Assembly (NCBI GenBank): GCA_964456235.1
Contig: CAYWDX010000001.1
Span: 35,074 to 99,073 of the forward strand
Reading direction: 5' to 3'
DNA length: 64,000 nucleotides
Origin: an uncultured Candidatus Saccharibacteria bacterium
GTDB taxonomy: Bacteria > Patescibacteriota > Minisyncoccia > UBA6257 > 2-01-FULL-56-20
Shown: piece after piece, positions 9,703 through 58,953 of the stretch
Position numbering within the stretch: the first letter of the stretch is position 1
Layout: each line of letters starts with the position of its first letter
Program-made: the position numbers and the translations under genes
The notes under the pieces: model-generated
What the model saw: the letters and a program-made list of their open reading frames with translations, nothing else
Told to the model about the DNA's origin: nothing
The model's database searches: none

Positions 9703-9723
9703 GTTTTAATAAATTTTTAATGT

Positions 9724-10200: not shown

Positions 10201-10226
10201 ATTTTTTTTCTTTAATAAATCTTTAA

Positions 10227-10910
10227 TTAAAAATTCCTAAAGATCCTGATGACCTTTTTATAGTCCATCCTCTTCGGGCCGATTGCGAAAATCGAAATGG
10301 TCCCATCGCCAAAATCAAAATTGCCGCCGACAACCGCAAGATGCTCGCTGCGCGTCACCGGGCTTTTGCGGCCGATGAACACCTTGAGGCCCTCGCCCAC
10401 CTTGCCCGCAACGCGCGGGATCCGCTCATCCATATCCTCAAAGTCCCGGATCACCGACTGAAGCTCGTCACGATTCTGCCATTCGAGGCGTTCAACGAGC
10501 GCTTCGAGACCGGCCTTGTAAACCGTTTCCTGCGTGAGATCGGCCGCAACGCCAAGAAGGCCGAGCTCGCGGGAAATTCGAGCGGAAAGTTCTGCCCATG
10601 CATGTTCCTCGAGAAGTTCGCGGAGCGTTGATTCGCGAGGCGCGGGGCGCGCGTTTTCGTGCGCGAGTGCGGTCTGCATCAAGCGGTCCGCTAAAAATTC
10701 ATAGCCAGCGTCGGTGGGAATGCGGCCCGCCGAGTGGTGGGGCTGCATGAGGTAATCCGCATCTTCCAGCGCGTCGAGCTCGAGGCGGATCATCGCCGGC
10801 TTGATGCCAAAATCGAAATTATCAAAAAGCCATCCCGAGCTGATCGGTTCGCCGGTCGTGATAAAGCCCTGGATTGCTGCTTCTAAAATTTGCGCGGTGC
10901 GGTCGGTCAT
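10227..10910 (-). CDS. hrcA: Heat-inducible transcription repressor HrcA (short form, 227 aa)
   Basis: N-terminal winged helix (QILEAAIQGFITTGEPISS) and C-terminal IGPKRMDYKKVI. Operon context with a CIRCE-like site upstream. Confidence 0.75.
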   Translation of the reverse strand: MTDRTAQILEAAIQGFITTGEPISSGWLFDNFDFGIKPAMIRLELDALEDADYLMQPHHSAGRIPTDAGYEFLADRLMQTALAHENARPAPRESTLRELLEEHAWAELSARISRELGLLGVAADLTQETVYKAGLEALVERLEWQNRDELQSVIRDFEDMDERIPRVAGKVGEGLKVFIGRKSPVTRSEHLAVVGGNFDFGDGTISIFAIGPKRMDYKKVIRIFRNF

Positions 10911-11911: not shown

Positions 11912-11984
11912 CTCCGGCACGACGGGCTCTGTCAAGTCAGTTTTAATAATTTTTTAATAGGGGCGGGCGTGATATAGTGAGCGT

Positions 11985-26927: not shown

Positions 26928-28319
<1,392 letters not shown>

Positions 28320-28331
28320 TTAATTAAAAAA

Positions 28332-45270: not shown

Positions 45271-45584
45271 GCAGCTATTTTACCATGCCCAGGCACCGTG
45301 GGCCCGTCGGGACTTGCACCCGCTTCTCCACTTTTCAAAGATGGCGTTTTACTCCATAAACTATAGGCCCATATACAGGCCCAAGAGCCCACGGTGAAAT
45401 GAAAGTAGCATATCGAAGATAAAATTTCGCTCAAATATTTATTAAAAAATATAAATGGCCGCTCGCGCGGCCACCTATACGAAAAGTGGAGAGACCAGCC
45501 TACGATTTATAGACTAGCACCATCTTCCCTCCAGGATAGACCAATCCCGAACCAAAAGTCAATGCGCGCTTAATGAAATTTTAA

Positions 45585-54916: not shown

Positions 54917-55474
54917 TTAATTGCGGATCTCGAGGAGGCCGCCGCGCGCGCCCGGAACCGCGCCGCGCAAGAGAATCAGATTTTTTTCTTTATCAATGCC
55001 CGCGACGACGAGGTTTTTCACCGTCACGCGATCCGTGCCCATGTGTCCCGCCATCCGGCGTCCGGGTACCACGCGCTGGAATGCGGTGGAACCAATCGAG
55101 CCGGGCGCGCGGAAGCGATTTTTTTGGCCGTGCGTTTTTGGCCCGCCGCCAAAACCGTGGCGCTTCACGACGCCTTGGAAACCGCGGCCCTTCGTGATGC
55201 CGCTCACCCGGACTCTTTCGCCTTCTTTAAAAGATTCCACGGTCACTTCGTCGCCGGCTTTGAATTGTGCGACGTCGATCGGATGCCACTCGCGATTGCG
55301 AAATTCCCGCTTCGCTTTGCCGAGCATCACCTGCACGGCTTCGTATCCTTCCTTTTCCTTGCTGCGCAAAAGTCCCACCTTATTCGGCTGGGCTTCAACG
55401 ACCGTGACGGGCACCACTTTGCCCTCGTTCCACATCTGGGTCATTTTCACTTTTTTACCCAAGATAAACGCCAT
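54917..55474 (-). CDS. rplC: 50S ribosomal protein L3
   Basis: Start taken at MAFILGKKVKMTQ (consensus L3 N-terminus KKxGMTQ). The longer ORF to 55522 would translate through the leader hairpin. Confidence 0.9.
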   Translation of the reverse strand: MAFILGKKVKMTQMWNEGKVVPVTVVEAQPNKVGLLRSKEKEGYEAVQVMLGKAKREFRNREWHPIDVAQFKAGDEVTVESFKEGERVRVSGITKGRGFQGVVKRHGFGGGPKTHGQKNRFRAPGSIGSTAFQRVVPGRRMAGHMGTDRVTVKNLVVAGIDKEKNLILLRGAVPGARGGLLEIRN

Positions 55475-55506
55475 GGTAAAAATAAAAATTCCGGCATTCA
55501 CCGGAA
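55475..55506 (-). promoter_or_regulatory. Terminator/attenuator-like hairpin plus U-tract in the rplC leader
   Basis: Minus strand reads ttccgg-tgaatg-ccggaa followed by TTTTTATTTTTA, ending 1-3 nt before the rplC ATG. Confidence 0.45.
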
Positions 55507-55623
55507 GTTCACGCACCGCCACCGATACCCCATCATTACATGGGATTTTTACTTAAGATAAACGCTCCTCGTCCTCCTAAGCGGGTAGTGATTTGCATGA
55601 AACTTCCGAGAAACCTTGTGCAG

Positions 55624-55653
55624 AGTCTATCAAATTTTGCGGTTAACTGTCAA
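55624..55653 (-). promoter_or_regulatory. Sigma70-like promoter for the rplC operon (TTGACA-N18-TAGACT)
   Basis: -35 at 55653-55648 and -10 at 55629-55624 on the minus strand. Confidence 0.5.
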
Positions 55654-55665
55654 TTATGGTATATT
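55637..55665 (+). promoter_or_regulatory. Divergent promoter TTGCGG-N17-TATATT
   Basis: Positioned back to back with the rplC promoter. Would drive a transcript of about 85 nt ending at the 55718 hairpin. Confidence 0.4.
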
Positions 55666-55717
55666 GAGGGGAGCACTCAGGTAGTCTTGTGGAGCACGCG
55701 AAGGTCCCCCCCACCCG

Positions 55718-55752
55718 AAGCCGCGGCGCAAGTCGCGGCTTTTCCTTTTATT
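55718..55752 (+). terminator. Hairpin terminator, copy A of a twin GCAA-tetraloop element
   Basis: aagccgcggc-gcaa-gtcgcggctt (10-bp stem with one G.U pair) followed by TTCCTTTTATT. Confidence 0.6.
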
Positions 55753-55772
55753 AAAAATTTATTAAGAAAATG

Positions 55773-55801
55773 TTGACTTTGTGATGAGTGCGTGCTAATG
55801 T
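55773..55801 (+). promoter_or_regulatory. Promoter TTGACT-N17-TAATGT for the small membrane protein gene
   Basis: Hexamers at 55773-55778 and 55796-55801. The GGGGGTGGAG RBS follows at 55821-55830. Confidence 0.5.
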
Positions 55802-55831
55802 ATGGGCAGTAAGTACCTTAGGGGGTGGAGC

Positions 55832-56116
55832 ATGAAAGCGCGCCGTCGACGCTTCTTCGCTTGGGCCATGGTGGCAGTAGCTGCAATCTTCGCGAGCTTC
55901 GTGATACCGTTCGTCCTCCTGAAGTTCCGCGTCCCGGCGGACAACGGGGTGATCTGGACAACGGTCAACGGATTGAGCGCCGTGAGTATCCTTGCGGGCG
56001 TGTGCATCCTTTATCGGATCGCCGTCGAAAGGGAGACCCTGAATCTCATGGAGTCCCAGCTGGCCGATCGGTACAATCGGCGGCGCGAGGTCCACAACGC
56101 CTGGCTCTTTGGTTAG
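55832..56116 (+). CDS. Small membrane protein (94 aa, two TM helices, Arg-rich N-terminus) inserted between rpsJ and rplC
   Basis: ATG at 55832 sits 5 nt after a strong SD. The first in-frame ATG at 55802 abuts the -10 box and so is probably not translated. Own promoter and terminator. No recognised family. Confidence 0.55.
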   Translation: MKARRRRFFAWAMVAVAAIFASFVIPFVLLKFRVPADNGVIWTTVNGLSAVSILAGVCILYRIAVERETLNLMESQLADRYNRRREVHNAWLFG

Positions 56117-56132
56117 TAAACCCAACAACCAA

Positions 56133-56166
56133 AAGCCGCAGCGCAAGCTGCGGCTTTTTCTTTTTC
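56133..56166. terminator. Bidirectional hairpin terminator, copy B of the twin element
   Basis: aagccgcagc-gcaa-gctgcggctt followed by TTTCTTTTT on the plus strand and TTTTGGTTGTTGGGTTT on the minus strand. Confidence 0.65.
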
Positions 56167-56178
56167 TGCCAAGGGTCA

Positions 56179-56316
56179 TAGAAAAGTCTTTCGAGGGGGC
56201 TCTCGGAGGCGCTCGCAGCTTGGTCTTTCGCGAAGCGGAAGTGCGAGCGCTGAGAGAGCAGGGTGGCTCGTGCCGCTGGAGCACGAGAACACCCGTACCC
56301 GAGAAAGACTTTTCTA
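56179..56316. repeat. MITE-like structured inverted-repeat element (12-bp terminal inverted repeats, 14 bp with the flanking TA; two internal hairpins), abutting the rpsJ stop codon
   Basis: tagaaaagtctttc at 56179-56192 is the exact reverse complement of gaaagacttttcta at 56303-56316. Inner hairpins: gctctc-ggag-gcgctcgca/tgcgagcgc-tga-gagagc (56199-56259) and gggtg-g-ctcgtgc/gcacgag-aa-caccc (56261-56295). Confidence 0.5.
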
Positions 56317-56643
56317 GACCATCTTCACCTCCACGTCGACACCGGCGGGAAGATTCAAGTTTGAAAGTGATTCGATGATCTTCTGGCTCGGATTCATGAT
56401 CTCCACGAGGCGTTTGTGCACGCGGAGTTCGAACTGCTCGCGCGAATCCTTATGGACGAATGTCGAGCGGTTCACGGTGTAGTGCTTGATTTCGGTCGGC
56501 AACGGAATCGGGCCCACCACTTTAGCATCGTTGCGCTCGGCGGCTTCAATGATTTGGCGCGCCGAGGTATCGATCAATTTGTGATCGTAGGATTTGATTC
56601 GCAAACGGACTTTCTGGAGAACTTCCGATTCCTTTTTTGCCAT
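56314..56643 (-). CDS. rpsJ: 30S ribosomal protein S10
   Basis: Sequence identifies S10. It lies immediately downstream of tuf. Confidence 0.95.
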
Positions 56644-56644
56644 A

Positions 56645-57844
56645 TTACTTGACGATCTTCGTTACAACGCCGGCGCCTACGGTTTTGCCACCCTCGCGGA
56701 TAGCGAAGCGCTGCTTCTCTTCGAGCGCCACGGGACTGATGAGCTTCACGGTAAGCTTCACCGTGTCGCCCGGCATGACCATTTCCATGCCATCCGGCAA
56801 GGTCACTTCGCCCGTCACATCCGTCGTACGGATGTAGAACTGCGGCTTGTAACCCTTGAAGAACGGCGAGTGACGGCCACCTTCCTCTTTCGAGAGCACG
56901 TAGACTTCGGTTTCGAATTCCGAGTGCGGCGTTACCGTTCCCGGTTTCGCGATCACCTGACCGCGCTCAACGTCTTCCTTCTTCAAGCCGCGGAGCAAGG
57001 CGCCAACGTTGTCGCCGGCCATACCTTCATCCAACAGCTTGTTGAACATTTCAATACCGGTGATGACGGTCTTCACCGTCGGGCGGAGACCAACGATCTC
57101 AACTTCCTCGTTCACCTTCACCTTGCCACGTTCCACGCGGCCCGTAACGACGGTACCGCGGCCTTCGATCGAGAAGATATCTTCGATCGGCATAAGGAAC
57201 GGCTTGTCGAGTTCGCGCGTCGGCGTCGGGAAATATTCATCCATCGCCGCAACGAGGTCCAAGATCGGTTTTGCGTCGGCGTCGTCACCGGAAGCCGCGT
57301 TCAATGCCTTCAAGGCCGAGCCGCGGATCACCGGCGCTTTGTCGCCGTCGAACTGATATTTCTTCAAGAGCTCGCGGACTTCAGATTCCACGAGGTCGAT
57401 GAGTTCTGGATCATCCACTTGGTCGCACTTGTTCAAGAACACAATAATGTTCGGGACGCCTACCTGGTGCGCAAGCAAGATGTGCTCCCGCGTCTGCGGC
57501 ATCGGACCATCCGTGGCCGCAACGACGAGGATCGCGCCGTCCATCTGGGCGGCACCCGTGATCATGTTTTTGATGTAGTCAGCGTGGCCCGGAGCGTCGA
57601 TGTGCGCATAGTGGCGCTTCGCCGACTCGTATTCCGAGTGGTGAAGGGCGATCGTGATGCCACGCGCCTTTTCTTCCGGAGCGTTGTCGATCTGGTCAAC
57701 TGCTTCCTCTTTTTTTGCCAAACCCTTTTTGAACAACACGTGCGTGATCGCGGCGGTCAGGGTCGTCTTGCCGTGATCCACGTGGCCGATCGTACCCACG
57801 TTCAAGTGGGGCTTTGATCGATCAAATTTTTCCTTTTCTGCCAT
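56645..57844 (-). CDS. tuf: Elongation factor Tu
   Basis: [15 protein letters not shown] and NKCD motifs. Confidence 0.95.
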
Positions 57845-58021
57845 TTGTTTTTTAGAATTTTTTAATGTTTATTTAACAATCATGACAATCGATCGAACAA
57901 ACAGAAGATGAGGCAAAGCCCCATCTCGTGCGGGTTGCTAGGCCGCTCTTTTCACTTTCCTATCAACCAGGAGATTAGCCAATCGACCCGAAAGTTCCCC
58001 TCGATGCAGGAAGTACCAAGG

Positions 58022-58051
58022 CATTCTATGGCAGAACTCCGGTTTTTGTCA
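58022..58051 (-). promoter_or_regulatory. Near-consensus promoter TTGACA-N18-TAGAAT upstream of tuf
   Basis: -35 at 58051-58046 and -10 at 58027-58022 on the minus strand. Lies about 170 nt upstream of the tuf ATG. Confidence 0.5.
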
Positions 58052-58057
58052 AATATT

Positions 58058-58094
58058 TGCCGAAGAAATACGCCCGCCGCGAAACGCGGCGGGC
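58058..58094 (-). terminator. Intrinsic terminator of the inserted secreted-protein gene
   Basis: Minus strand gcccgccgcg-ttt-cgcggcgggc followed by GTATTTCTTCGG. Confidence 0.55.
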
Positions 58095-58113
58095 ATGGAT
58101 GCACTTCTCACAC

Positions 58114-58953
58114 TTACTGGCCCGAATTCCAACGCGGATTTCTTGGGTACCGGTGCTTCAGGTAGCGCTCGATTTCAAGGATGGGATGGTCCGCTTCGAA
58201 GCCGGATTGGTCTTTCGCAGCCCGGCGCCTCCGTTCCGCGTCGAGGATGAAAATGTAAATGTCATCCACGAACGGCGACGAGTTGCCGTGCAGCGCATCT
58301 TCGATGACCTCCACGGCGTGCGATCGGTCGCGGGGAATCCTCGCAAGGAGGACTCCCATCTTCCGAAACCCTCCCTGCTCGCTCGCTTTGTATTCATAGA
58401 GGCCGAGGAGGAATTTCGCCTGCTTGGACTTTGAGTGTGCCGCGACGTCGAGGAACGCCCGGTGATCTTTTTCGATCGCCTGCTTCGCCGAGAACCATCC
58501 TTCATTTTCGCCACGGAGGGTCATCCGCAGGGAATAGAAGCCGGTGGCAAGGTATTCGCAGTCGATCGTGTCCCCTGCAATCGCGCGGATCGTATCGCGA
58601 CTTGCTTCGGTGCACCCACGCGCTTCGTATTCGGCGATAGCCTCATCGAGCGCTCGGATTTCCAAAGCGTACTCCTCTTGCGGCAGCTCGCCCCGCTCCT
58701 TTCGGCGTTCGGAAAAGCGGTCGTACGCGAGACGCAGCCCGACGAGCATGTCTCCAGGGTGCGCCTGTACATATTCGAGAAATCTTTTCTGCGCCTCTCC
58801 ATGTTCGCCGTTATAGGAGAGGGTGATCGCATCTCGAAGCGTCAAGACGTCCTTGGCGTGATCATGCTTCGGCTTGGAATCGTCGACGGCAGCGGCGAAT
58901 CCAAGCGTGCTTGACGAGCAAATCAAAAACAAGAACAGCACGCGAGCTTTCAT
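58114..58953 (-). CDS. Hypothetical secreted alpha-helical protein (279 aa) inserted between fusA and tuf
   Basis: Signal peptide MKARVLFLFLICSSSTLGFAAA, AAGGAG RBS, own promoter and terminator. No recognised family. Confidence 0.6.
   Translation of the reverse strand: MKARVLFLFLICSSSTLGFAAAVDDSKPKHDHAKDVLTLRDAITLSYNGEHGEAQKRFLEYVQAHPGDMLVGLRLAYDRFSERRKERGELPQEEYALEIRALDEAIAEYEARGCTEASRDTIRAIAGDTIDCEYLATGFYSLRMTLRGENEGWFSAKQAIEKDHRAFLDVAAHSKSKQAKFLLGLYEYKASEQGGFRKMGVLLARIPRDRSHAVEVIEDALHGNSSPFVDDIYIFILDAERRRRAAKDQSGFEADHPILEIERYLKHRYPRNPRWNSGQ

What the first reader, a model, noticed from the sequence alone, without database searches (positions are those of the whole stretch)
55475..56316. 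The universally conserved rpsJ-rplC junction is split by 0.8 kb of promoters, terminators, a small gene and structured repeats
S10 (rpsJ) is normally immediately followed and co-transcribed by L3 (rplC). Here S10 ends at 56314 and L3 starts at 55474. The gap contains a TA-flanked inverted-repeat element, a bidirectional terminator, an opposite-strand 94-aa membrane protein gene with its own promoter and SD, a second near-identical terminator hairpin, a divergent promoter pair, and a terminator-like hairpin in the L3 leader. So S10 is transcribed with tuf but is insulated from L3-L4-L23-L2, which would need new regulation (possibly L4-type attenuation moved to the L3 leader).
Basis: partly seen in the sequence, partly recalled or inferred. 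Interest (0 to 1): 0.7.

Follow-up and report, generated by a model that had tools for sequence, protein, structure and literature searches.

The report
Separate rplC operon with attenuator leader
The gap between ribosomal genes S10 and L3 is real, but it is normal for this group of tiny uncultured bacteria; its most interesting content is a conserved, undescribed RNA switch (promoter, folded leader, terminator) in front of L3, next to a genome-specific orphan gene and a palindromic element.

Summary
The premise is wrong: the rpsJ-rplC split is not a local disruption. Among 64 informative related Paceibacteria genomes, only one has S10 within 100 nt of L3. Gaps run from 75 nt to over 4 kb and hold unrelated genes. 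What is conserved is the 3' end of the gap. It holds a sigma-70-type promoter (55653..55624, minus strand) and a leader of about 135 nt (55617..55484). A covarying long-range helix in the leader competes with a terminator hairpin plus U-run just before the rplC ATG. A covariance model finds this leader once per genome, always before rplC, in the window and 31 relatives. 19 of its 29 pairs show compensatory changes, and it has no Rfam match. A second, unrelated leader class with the same logic precedes rplC in 21 further relatives. So tuf-rpsJ is a terminated unit, and rplC-rplD-... is a separate, probably attenuated operon. The regulator is unknown; L4 is only an analogy. The middle of the gap is genome-specific: a 138-nt palindromic element, a 94-aa two-TM ORFan and two related hairpins. 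Mobility is not shown. Moderately interesting.

The parts
56645..57844 (-). tuf (EF-Tu), first gene of the tuf-rpsJ unit
   Evidence: 399-aa ORF, 83-95% identical to tuf in relatives. A promoter-like site (11/12 match) lies upstream at 58052..58023.
56314..56643 (-). rpsJ (S10); its ATG lies 1 nt after the tuf stop
   Evidence: Pfam PF00338, 2.9e-34; sequence.
56179..56316 (.). 138-nt palindromic, three-way-junction element. Its first three bases supply the rpsJ stop codon TAG. It is absent from all relatives.
   Evidence: 19-nt terminal inverted repeats (I2). MFE -82.4 kcal/mol, z -6.3. Single copy in the window. No similarity in 80 related loci or in the metagenome hits. Its removal joins GTC|TGA (read directly from the sequence).
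56121..56164 (.). Hairpin A (stem-loop 56131-56158): an A-run/hairpin/T-run terminator-like site shared by the convergent rpsJ and ORFan genes
   Evidence: (D1, I3). Relatives carry the same kind of terminator right after rpsJ.
55832..56116 (+). ORFan encoding a 94-aa protein predicted to span the membrane twice (an alternative ATG at 55802 would give 104 aa)
   Evidence: ORF. Found only as itself among 5.8 billion clusters and among 1.84 billion representatives searched by full HMMER. Codon score 0.18, GC3 0.78, two hydrophobic segments. Only sub-threshold Pfam, NCBIfam and PADLOC hits.
55773..55801 (+). Possible ORFan promoter, TTGACT-17-TAATGT (weak -10 element)
   Evidence: Read from the sequence. 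Not called by the consensus scan.
55750..55765 (+). Copy of the genome's recurrent intergenic motif ATTAAAAATTTATTAA
   Evidence: 14 matches in the window against 0.05 expected.
55706..55749 (.). Hairpin B (stem-loop 55717-55742): a direct-repeat copy of hairpin A, 415 bp away. One stem pair differs by a compensatory change (A-T to G-C).
   Evidence: (D1).
55624..55653 (-). rplC operon promoter (TTGACA-18-TAGACT preceded by TG)
   Evidence: Scan. TTGAC-17-TGnTATAaT is conserved at the same distance from the leader start in 30 relatives.
55484..55617 (-). Conserved rplC leader RNA (class 1). P1: 55609-55594 with 55517-55501. Inner helix: 55588-55584 with 55523-55519. P2: 55582-55570 with 55564-55551. 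P3: 55546-55540 with 55533-55527.
   Evidence: Covariance-model hit of 116 bits, E 1e-26; one hit per genome in 32 genomes. 89% of cells paired, 19/29 pairs compensatory. z = -4.4. No Rfam match.
55478..55506 (-). Terminator hairpin (55506-55489) plus U-run (55488-55478). Its 5' arm is shared with the P1 3' strand. The rplC ATG follows 3 nt later.
   Evidence: A hairpin is present in 31/31 leaders and overlaps P1 by 2-11 nt. The two folds differ by a median of 3.8 kcal/mol.
55536..55598 (-). Possible 20-codon leader ORF (MQITTRLGGRGAFILSKNPM*). Its AUG lies in the P1 5' strand and its stop lies in the P3 loop.
   Evidence: In frame in 26/30 leaders; stop in the P3 loop in 24/31. L040 lacks the AUG.
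54917..55474 (-). rplC (L3), first gene of the rplC-rplD-rplW-rplB-rpsS... operon

Best explanation
In this Paceibacteria (Patescibacteria) lineage, the classical S10 operon is cut into two transcription units.

Unit 1 is tuf-rpsJ. It ends at an intrinsic terminator just after rpsJ.

Unit 2 starts with rplC. It has its own sigma-70-type promoter and a structured leader of about 135 nt that works as a transcription attenuator:
- A long-range helix, P1, closes a junction that carries hairpins P2 and P3.
- P1 uses the same nucleotides (CUUCCGG in the window) as the 5' arm of a terminator hairpin that sits right before the rplC start codon.
- P1 is slightly more stable than the terminator fold, so read-through is the default.
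- Some factor that prevents P1 would let the terminator form and shut the operon down. By analogy, this factor would be excess free ribosomal protein encoded by the operon, such as L4.

The DNA between the two units is under no operon constraint and has become a dumping ground. Different genomes hold anything from nothing to four unrelated genes there. This genome holds three things:
- a 138-nt palindromic element inserted exactly between the last S10 codon and its old TGA stop;
- an orphan gene for a small two-TM protein, convergent with rpsJ;
- a duplicated terminator-like hairpin on each side of that gene.

Shown: the anatomy, conservation, covariation, alternative pairing and the variability of the gap.
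Inferred: transcription start and stop sites, the direction of regulation, the identity of the effector, and expression of the ORFan.
For: Gap variability:
- Of 50 relatives with both genes in the fetched DNA, 1 has a gap under 100 nt, 14 have 100-400 nt, 13 have 400-1000 nt and 22 have over 1 kb. A further 14 have no S10 within 4 kb of rplC.
- The cargo in the gap is unrelated between genomes: ABC transporter, BacA, Ddl, methyltransferases, a reverse transcriptase. 63 of 68 gap ORFs are singletons.

Terminator after rpsJ: relatives have a classic A-tract/hairpin/T-tract terminator 4-60 nt after the rpsJ stop.

Promoter: the promoter and the leader start AAGGUUUCCUCGG are conserved in 30 relatives.

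Leader:
- The covariance model gives exactly one hit per genome, always upstream of rplC, in 32 genomes. It gives no hit elsewhere in the window or in the other loci.
- 89.2% of cells are paired, against 44-55% when partners are slid. 19 of 29 pairs show compensatory changes, against 2-11 when slid. None of 500 shuffles reached the observed values. In P1, 8 of 10 pairs are compensatory.
- 20 leaders folded singly all give the same P1-closed fold, with z from -2.2 to -4.9.
- A terminator hairpin is present in 31/31 leaders and overlaps the P1 3' strand by a median of 5 nt. The tail has a median of 6 U in 8 nt.
- The energy difference (antiterminator minus terminator) has a median of -3.8 kcal/mol, and the antiterminator is favoured in 26/31.

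Wider support:
- A second leader class with its own promoter, alternative pairing and terminator precedes rplC in 21 more genomes.
- Neither class matches Rfam 15.
- The middle of the gap, 55635-56313, has no similarity in any relative.
Against: - There are no transcript data. The TSS, the termination site and read-through are all predicted.
- The pair counts were made on an alignment fitted to the model. RNAalifold run on that gappy alignment recovers only P2.
- No similarity between the leader and E. coli 16S or 23S rRNA rises above the reverse-complement controls. The lineage's own rRNA was not available, so nothing points to a specific ribosomal protein.
- The motif is confined to about 32 species-level genomes, which limits independent covariation events.
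- All genomes are MAGs. Several are closed chromosomes, so misassembly cannot explain the pattern, but it may affect individual gap sizes.
- The ORFan's codon score is low for a real gene.
Confidence: 0.7

Rival explanations
1. A recent local insertion (mobile element plus cargo gene) broke a conserved rpsJ-rplC operon junction in this genome, and the promoter and attenuator arose or moved as a consequence.
For: - The 138-nt element, the ORFan and the hairpin duplication are unique to this genome.
- Precise removal of the 138-nt element restores S10 with a TGA stop 14 nt before hairpin A. That resembles the layout in relatives.
- The ORFan is bracketed by 44-nt direct repeats.
Against: - The split, the rplC promoter and the leader occur in 31 relatives that lack this insert.
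- Only 1 of 64 informative relatives has S10 next to L3.
- No second copy of any gap element was found.
- No transposase or integrase is present.
Confidence: 0.1
2. The leader is a ribosome-sensing (leader-peptide) attenuator. A short ORF starts at the conserved AUG inside the P1 5' strand and stops in the P3 loop. Ribosomes loading on it would keep P1 from forming, so that high translation capacity terminates transcription of the ribosomal-protein operon.
For: - An AUG lies at the same leader position in 30/31 leaders.
- The AUG-to-P2 distance is a multiple of 3 in 26/30, despite lengths of 18-63 nt.
- The in-frame stop codon is at the first nucleotides of the P3 loop in 24/31.
- The peptide ends recur...G(R/K)Rx(S/P)F(S/F)LxDP(A/V)*.
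- A rough binomial over about 15 length classes gives p of about 0.01 (my own calculation).
Against: - The other two frames are equally open (median 24 and 28 codons, against 20 for this frame).
- L040 replaces AUGC/GCAU by CCAC/GUGG, which keeps the helix but loses the start codon.
- L004, L005, L015 and L046 truncate the ORF.
- The peptide's variable part follows covarying RNA hairpins.
- The conserved codons coincide with the P2 and P3 stems, so RNA constraints could explain them.
- The sequences are related, so they are not independent.
Confidence: 0.2
3. The leader is a riboswitch for a small molecule, or an independent small RNA gene of about 135 nt whose terminator happens to precede rplC. 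It would not be a ribosomal-protein-binding leader.
For: - The multi-stem junction has many invariant unpaired nucleotides (AAGGUUUCCU, AAUA, the P2 sequence) and a classic expression platform.
- No rRNA mimicry was detected.
Against: - It is found only upstream of rplC, once per genome.
- rplC has no other promoter between the terminator and its ATG in the short-leader genomes, so read-through is required.
- A different RNA occupies the same place in the neighbouring clade. That pattern is typical of fast-evolving ribosomal-protein leaders and not of riboswitches.
Confidence: 0.1
4. The hairpin before rplC is merely the terminator of whatever lies upstream. The conserved upstream sequence would be a promoter-proximal stabilising structure with no switching function.
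For: Intrinsic terminators are common in these intergenic regions.
Against: - The terminator lies downstream of the conserved promoter, inside the transcript.
- Its 5' arm covaries with the leader's 5' end: GGAAG/CUUCC, GGAG/CUCC, GGACG/CGUCC, GGGGG/CCCC.
- The two folds are nearly isoenergetic.
Confidence: 0.05

Closest known systems
E. coli S10 operon leader (L4-interacting RNA; transcription attenuation plus translational repression)
   Same: - A 5' leader of the operon encoding L3-L4-L23-L2-S19... that contains an intrinsic terminator.
- Autogenous control by an operon-encoded protein is the natural model (PMC3616713).
   Different: - The E. coli leader sits before rpsJ, whereas this one sits before rplC, with rpsJ left in the tuf unit.
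- There is no sequence or structure similarity and no Rfam hit.
- Here a long-range antiterminator helix competes with the terminator. In E. coli, L4 with NusA stabilises a pause at hairpin HE.
- Binding of L4 is untested here.
L4 r-leader candidate of Archaeoglobi, upstream of rplC-rplD-rplW-rplB (Eckert & Weinberg 2020, PMC7247131)
   Same: A candidate ribosomal leader placed directly before rplC, in a lineage where S10 is not part of that operon.
   Different: - It is archaeal, with a different motif.
- Rfam 15 gives no match to the window's leader.
- That motif's ligand is also assigned only by precedent.
tufA-rps10 arrangement (str cluster) of plastids
   Same: - rps10 follows tufA and is detached from rpl3. 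Diatom plastid gene orders run ...rps12, rps7, tufA, rps10 at one end and rpl4, rpl3 at the other end (PMC8268801).
- From my own recollection, not checked here: cyanobacteria and archaea show the same arrangement.
   Different: In those genomes the two genes are at opposite ends of a cluster. Here they keep their order and orientation but are separated by a variable spacer, a terminator and a new promoter and leader.
Terminator/antiterminator attenuators with leader peptides (trp/his type)
   Same: - Mutually exclusive helices decide whether an intrinsic terminator forms.
- A short ORF overlaps the upstream strand.
   Different: - There are no runs of regulatory codons.
- The start codon itself lies in the antiterminator strand.
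- The ORF is not universal, since L040 lacks it.
MITEs and other small palindromic insertions (for the 138-nt element)
   Same: Terminal inverted repeats of 17-19 nt, TA on both sides, about 140 bp, no coding capacity, absent from relatives.
   Different: - It is a single copy in 64 kb, and no copy was found elsewhere.
- A TA target-site duplication would not restore the S10 reading frame.
- The arms are perfect palindromes forming a three-way junction, not a simple TIR pair.

Membership tests
E. coli-type S10 leader (L4-interacting RNA) | Located in the 5' UTR of rpsJ | tested here: not met
   rpsJ starts 1 nt after the tuf stop. The leader precedes rplC.
E. coli-type S10 leader (L4-interacting RNA) | Sequence and structure match to the curated model(s) in Rfam | tested here: not met
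   No hit at gathering score or at E <= 10 over 55300-56700.
E. coli-type S10 leader (L4-interacting RNA) | Binds L4 and causes NusA-dependent termination | not testable with these tools
   Needs biochemistry.
Ribosomal-protein leader (autoregulatory cis-RNA), generic | Conserved structured RNA directly upstream of a ribosomal-protein operon, on the sense strand | tested here: met
   One covariance-model hit per genome, always before rplC, in 32 genomes.
Ribosomal-protein leader (autoregulatory cis-RNA), generic | Base pairs supported by covariation | tested here: met
   19/29 pairs compensatory, 89% of cells paired against about 50% when slid. Single-sequence folds agree. Caveat: the alignment was fitted to the model, and RNAalifold on it gives only P2.
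Ribosomal-protein leader (autoregulatory cis-RNA), generic | Mimicry of the rRNA binding site of the regulator | tested here: inconclusive
   Local alignment to E. coli 16S and 23S gives nothing above the reverse-complement controls. No rRNA of this lineage was in hand.
Intrinsic-terminator attenuator with antiterminator | G+C-rich hairpin followed by a U-run inside the 5' UTR | tested here: met
   Present in 31/31 leaders; median dG -9.9 kcal/mol; median 6 U in the next 8 nt.
Intrinsic-terminator attenuator with antiterminator | An alternative helix that shares nucleotides with the terminator stem | tested here: met
   The P1 3' strand overlaps the terminator 5' arm by 2-11 nt in 31/31. The median energy difference between the folds is -3.8 kcal/mol.
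Intrinsic-terminator attenuator with antiterminator | Condition-dependent termination in vivo or in vitro | not testable with these tools
   No transcript data.
MITE (for 56179-56316) | Terminal inverted repeats | tested here: met
   19-nt arms, 89% complementary.
MITE (for 56179-56316) | Target-site duplication whose removal restores the target | tested here: not met
   TA flanks both ends, but excision leaving one TA gives GTC-TAT-GAC with no stop. Only removal of the full 138 nt restores GTC|TGA.
MITE (for 56179-56316) | Multiple copies in the genome or in related genomes | tested here: not met
   Single copy in the 64-kb window. None in 80 related loci. The 120 metagenome hits are chance single-arm matches. 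The rest of this genome was not searchable.
Leader-peptide attenuator | Conserved translatable short ORF in the leader | tested here: inconclusive
   AUG present in 30/31, in frame in 26/30, stop in the P3 loop in 24/31. However, the other frames are equally open and L040 lacks the AUG.

The most novel reading that the evidence does not exclude
The rplC leader is a new kind of feedback device in which the ribosome itself is the sensed ligand.
- A short leader ORF has its start codon inside the antiterminator strand and its stop codon in the loop of hairpin P3.
- When free ribosomes are plentiful, initiation on the leader ORF would block the antiterminator.
- Transcription of the L3-L4-L23-L2... 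operon would then terminate.

This would couple ribosomal-protein synthesis directly to translation capacity, in bacteria with minimal regulatory repertoires.
Probability: 0.15. Interest if true: 0.75.

Novelty: new variant of a known kind. Interest (0 to 1): 0.45.

Why it matters
Almost nothing is known about gene regulation in Patescibacteria (CPR), which cannot be grown alone and have very few regulators.

- A conserved promoter-leader-terminator switch in front of the main ribosomal-protein operon, in two structural classes across 53 of the 80 related genomes examined, is a concrete and testable regulatory RNA for this group.
- It shows that the operon boundary and its control point moved from before rpsJ to before rplC.
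- For genome annotation and phylogenomics, S10 and L3 cannot be assumed adjacent or co-transcribed in these lineages, even though both belong to the standard syntenic ribosomal marker set.
- The genome-specific ORFan and palindromic element illustrate how such a released intergenic site collects new DNA.

Tried and rejected
- **Rfam.** Searched the whole window at gathering score and the gap at E <= 10. Only tRNAs and sub-threshold hits driven by terminator hairpins came up. The class-2 leader also had no hit.
- **Homologues of the ORFan.** The word-indexed search over 5.8 billion clusters found only the protein itself. Full HMMER over 1.84 billion representatives gave only low-complexity hits in long proteins. 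Pfam YLATT at E 0.007 and NCBIfam nodJ at 0.0012 are far below their cutoffs, and PADLOC found nothing. All were rejected as annotations.
- **Copies of the 138-nt element.** Searched the window, the 80 relatives and a metagenome pattern scan. The mobile-element reading is therefore unsupported but not excluded.
- **rRNA mimicry.** Smith-Waterman alignment of the leaders against E. coli 16S and 23S scored the same as the reverse-complement controls. GGAAGAC and AAGGGUUCC are adjacent at 23S positions 1299-1315, which I noticed after the fact. I do not count this as evidence.
- **Extension by covariance model.** Model R2 found no convincing hits in the 49 more distant loci, so class 1 is clade-restricted.
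- **MAFFT and RNAalifold on all leaders.** These gave poor alignments and recovered only P2.
- **13-nt repeat TGGAGCACG(C/A)GAA** (55690 and 56277). Judged to be at chance level.
- **The 20-nt leader copy of the rplC 5' codons** (D3). It could let the P2 5' strand pair with the rplC start region, but the complementarity is not conserved in relatives, so I left it unexplained.
Full report
**1. What is at the coordinates**

On the minus strand the window encodes, in order:
- tuf (57844..56645)
- rpsJ (56643..56314)
- an 839-nt gap
- rplC (55474..54917), followed by rplD, rplW, rplB and rpsS

The tuf stop and the rpsJ ATG are 1 nt apart. The rplC start is secure: MAFILGKKVKMTQ aligns with the N-terminus in 80 relatives.

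- **138-nt element, 56179-56316.** It has 19-nt inverted termini and folds into a three-way junction at -82 kcal/mol, z = -6.3.
- **Hairpin A, 56131-56158.** It has an A-run on one side and a T-run on the other.
- **A + strand ORF, 55832-56116.**
- **Hairpin B, 55717-55742.** It is 80% identical to hairpin A over 44 nt. Only these two copies occur in the window, against 0 expected.
- **A promoter-like site, 55653..55624**.
- **A hairpin plus U-run, 55506..55478**, three bases before the rplC ATG.

**2. The split is a lineage feature, not a local accident**

A scan of one genome per species with the L3 protein returned 80 loci. All are Patescibacteria MAGs labelled Paceibacteria, Parcubacteria, Liptonbacteria and similar. 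Several are closed chromosomes.

Locating S10 and L3 in each locus gave the following:

| S10-L3 spacing | Genomes |
|---|---|
| under 100 nt | 1 |
| 100-400 nt | 14 |
| 400-1000 nt | 13 |
| over 1 kb | 22 |
| no S10 in 4 kb upstream of rplC | 14 |

The first four rows cover the 50 loci where both genes are present.

The genes in these gaps are unrelated to each other: 63 of 68 ORFs are singletons. They are ordinary genes, including an ABC transporter pair, BacA, D-Ala-D-Ala ligase, methyltransferases and a reverse transcriptase.

In relatives, rpsJ is followed within 4-60 nt by a textbook A-tract/hairpin/T-tract terminator.

The premise that the junction is 'universal' is also too strong in general. 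Diatom plastid genomes place rps10 after tufA, at the opposite end of the cluster from rpl3 (PMC8268801).

**3. What is conserved: a promoter and a leader RNA before rplC**

BLASTN of the gap against the relatives finds similarity only at 55400-55634. The stretch 55635-56313 matches nothing.

Alignment of the rplC upstream regions shows TTGAC-17-TGnTATAaT. About 7 nt later comes an almost invariant start, AAGGUUUCCUCGG, in 30 relatives.

A covariance model built from 8 sequences gave these results:
- It finds exactly one hit per genome, always just before rplC, in the window (116 bits) and 31 relatives.
- It finds nothing elsewhere in the window.
- It finds nothing convincing in the 49 more distant loci.

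On the 31-sequence alignment:
- 89.2% of cells are paired, against 44-55% when the partners are slid by 1-3 columns.
- 19 of 29 pairs show compensatory changes, against 2-11 when slid.
- None of 500 shuffles reached the observed values.
- The long-range helix P1 has compensatory changes in 8 of 10 pairs (GGAAG/CUUCC, GGAG/CUCC, GGACG/CGUCC, GGGGG/CCCC).

Independently of any alignment, 20 leaders folded one by one all give the same architecture: P1 closing a junction with hairpins P2 and P3. Their z-scores run from -2.2 to -4.9.

One caveat applies. RNAalifold on the gappy model-fitted alignment recovers only P2. On the 8 close sequences it recovers P1 and P2.

Rfam 15 has no match at any threshold tried. 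Literature searches found ribosomal leaders before rpsJ in E. coli (PMC3616713) and before rplC in Archaeoglobi (PMC7247131), but none for CPR bacteria.

**4. How the leader most likely works**

All 31 leaders contain a hairpin followed by a U-rich tract. The hairpin's 5' arm overlaps the 3' strand of P1 by 2-11 nt, median 5.

Folds constrained to the P1 state and to the terminator state differ by a median of 3.8 kcal/mol. P1 is favoured in 26 of 31.

This is the design of a terminator/antiterminator attenuator in which read-through is the default. A factor that prevents P1 would trigger termination.

The window's coordinates, on the minus strand, are:

| Element | Coordinates |
|---|---|
| Predicted TSS | about 55617 |
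| P1 | 55609-55594 with 55517-55501 |
| P2 | 55582-55570 with 55564-55551 |
| P3 | 55546-55540 with 55533-55527 |
| Terminator hairpin | 55506-55489 |
| U-run | 55488-55478 |
| rplC ATG | 55474 |

The lack of a Shine-Dalgarno sequence before rplC is not special. Most genes in this window have A/U-rich, SD-less upstream regions.

By precedent (E. coli L4, PMC3616713), the effector would be a protein encoded in the operon. Nothing here identifies it:
- Alignment to E. coli rRNAs gave no signal above controls.
- No rRNA of this lineage was available.

**5. A possible leader ORF**

A conserved AUG inside the P1 5' strand opens a short ORF. In the window it is MQITTRLGGRGAFILSKNPM*, at 55598..55536.
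- The AUG-to-P2 distance is a multiple of three in 26 of 30 leaders, across lengths of 18-63 nt.
- The stop codon sits at the start of the P3 loop in 24 of 31.

Several observations count against translation being essential:
- The other frames are just as open.
- L040 has replaced AUGC/GCAU by CCAC/GUGG. This preserves the helix but removes the start codon.
- Four genomes truncate the ORF.

I keep this as a minority hypothesis.

**6. A second leader class**

In 21 of the more distant relatives, rplC is preceded by a different conserved unit:
- a TTGACA promoter;
- UCUCUUUAAUGG, a covarying hairpin, then UUUCACAAGGAU;
- a CGCCCGGG...CUUGGGCG hairpin plus U-run, in which CAAGG can pair with either CUUU(A) or CCUUG.

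It also has no Rfam match. Together, 53 of the 80 relatives carry one of two attenuator-like leaders before rplC.

**7. The genome-specific middle of the gap**

*The 138-nt element.*
- It is absent from all relatives and unique in the window.
- A metagenome scan returned only chance single-arm hits.
- Removing exactly 56179-56316 joins GTC|TGA. This restores S10 with a stop codon 14 nt before hairpin A, the layout seen in relatives.
- An insertion is therefore plausible. However, a TA target duplication does not fit, and multi-copy status, the hallmark of a MITE, is not shown.

*The ORF.*
- It has no homologue among 5.8 billion clusters or 1.84 billion representatives.
- Its codon score (0.18) and GC3 (0.78) favour coding over the other five frames, but the score is low for a real gene.
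- It has an N-terminal Arg cluster, two hydrophobic segments and a charged tail.

*Hairpins A and B.* They flank the ORF as 44-nt direct repeats and differ by one compensatory stem change. A serves as a shared terminator for the convergent rpsJ and ORF. B has no evident role. How the duplication arose is unexplained.

**8. Verdict**

- **Observation:** confirmed.
- **Interpretation:** partly supported. Transcriptional insulation and an attenuator before L3 are right. A recent insertion breaking a universal junction is wrong.
- **The advance:** a new structural class, in fact two classes, of ribosomal-operon leader at a non-canonical operon boundary in Patescibacteria. Comparative evidence is solid, but there is no experimental or ligand evidence.
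- **Interest:** moderate.

Noticed in passing
window 55750-55765 and 13 other sites (e.g. 9706-9721, 28309-28324, 10212-10227, 11943-11958): The 16-nt motif ATTAAAAATTTATTAA occurs 14 times (up to 2 mismatches) against 0.05 expected. It is always intergenic and often sits directly before a start codon. It may be a promoter/UP element or an SD-independent translation initiation region.
   Followed up: partly
whole window: Most predicted genes lack a Shine-Dalgarno sequence and instead have A/T-rich upstream regions. This genome appears to rely on SD-independent initiation.
   Followed up: partly
L016, L036-L038, L041-L045, L047-L049, L054, L057, L061, L063-L065, L071, L074, L076 (about 50-250 nt upstream of rplC): A second conserved rplC leader class with no sequence similarity to class 1. 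It has a TTGACA promoter, then UCUCUUUAAUGG-hairpin-UUUCACAAGGAU, then a CGCCCGGG..CUUGGGCG terminator with a U-run. It has no Rfam match.
   Followed up: partly
window 55546-55565 vs 55452-55471: A 20-nt direct repeat with 18/20 identity. The leader segment just after the P2 loop (GCGTTTATCTTAAGTAAAAA) copies rplC codons 2-8 (GCGTTTATCTTGGGTAAAAA). It could be a remnant of a 5' duplication, or an alternative pairing partner for the P2 5' strand. The resemblance is much weaker in relatives (D3).
   Followed up: partly
L006-L010, L019-L029 and L009, L012-L014, L017, L018, L033 (between the leader terminator and the rplC ATG): Longer leaders carry an extra conserved module after the terminator. 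It ends in ...GGACGAUCAAGAAA-AUG in one group, or ...GACAUUAUUCAAAGCA-AUG in the other. The window-type leaders lack it. This may be a second, translational control element.
   Followed up: no
L019, L021, L022, L023 (tuf-rpsJ interval): In some relatives the tuf-rpsJ junction is also opened, by 0.5-1 kb. In the window and most relatives the two genes are 1-40 nt apart.
   Followed up: no
L055 2086-3162 of the S10-L3 gap: A reverse transcriptase gene (Pfam RVT_1, 1.4e-24) sits between rpsJ and rplC in one relative. It could belong to a group II intron or a retron.
   Followed up: no
window 45299-45370 (-): Rfam calls a fourth tRNA here at 37.9 bits that ARAGORN does not report. It may be a degenerate or unusual tRNA.
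   Followed up: no
window 57845-58113: tuf has its own strong promoter-like site (TTGACA-18-TAGAAT, 11/12 match, 58052..58023). Its 5' UTR of about 170 nt contains a hairpin at 57927..57905. The gene upstream (58114-58953) is not fusA and has no family match.
   Followed up: no
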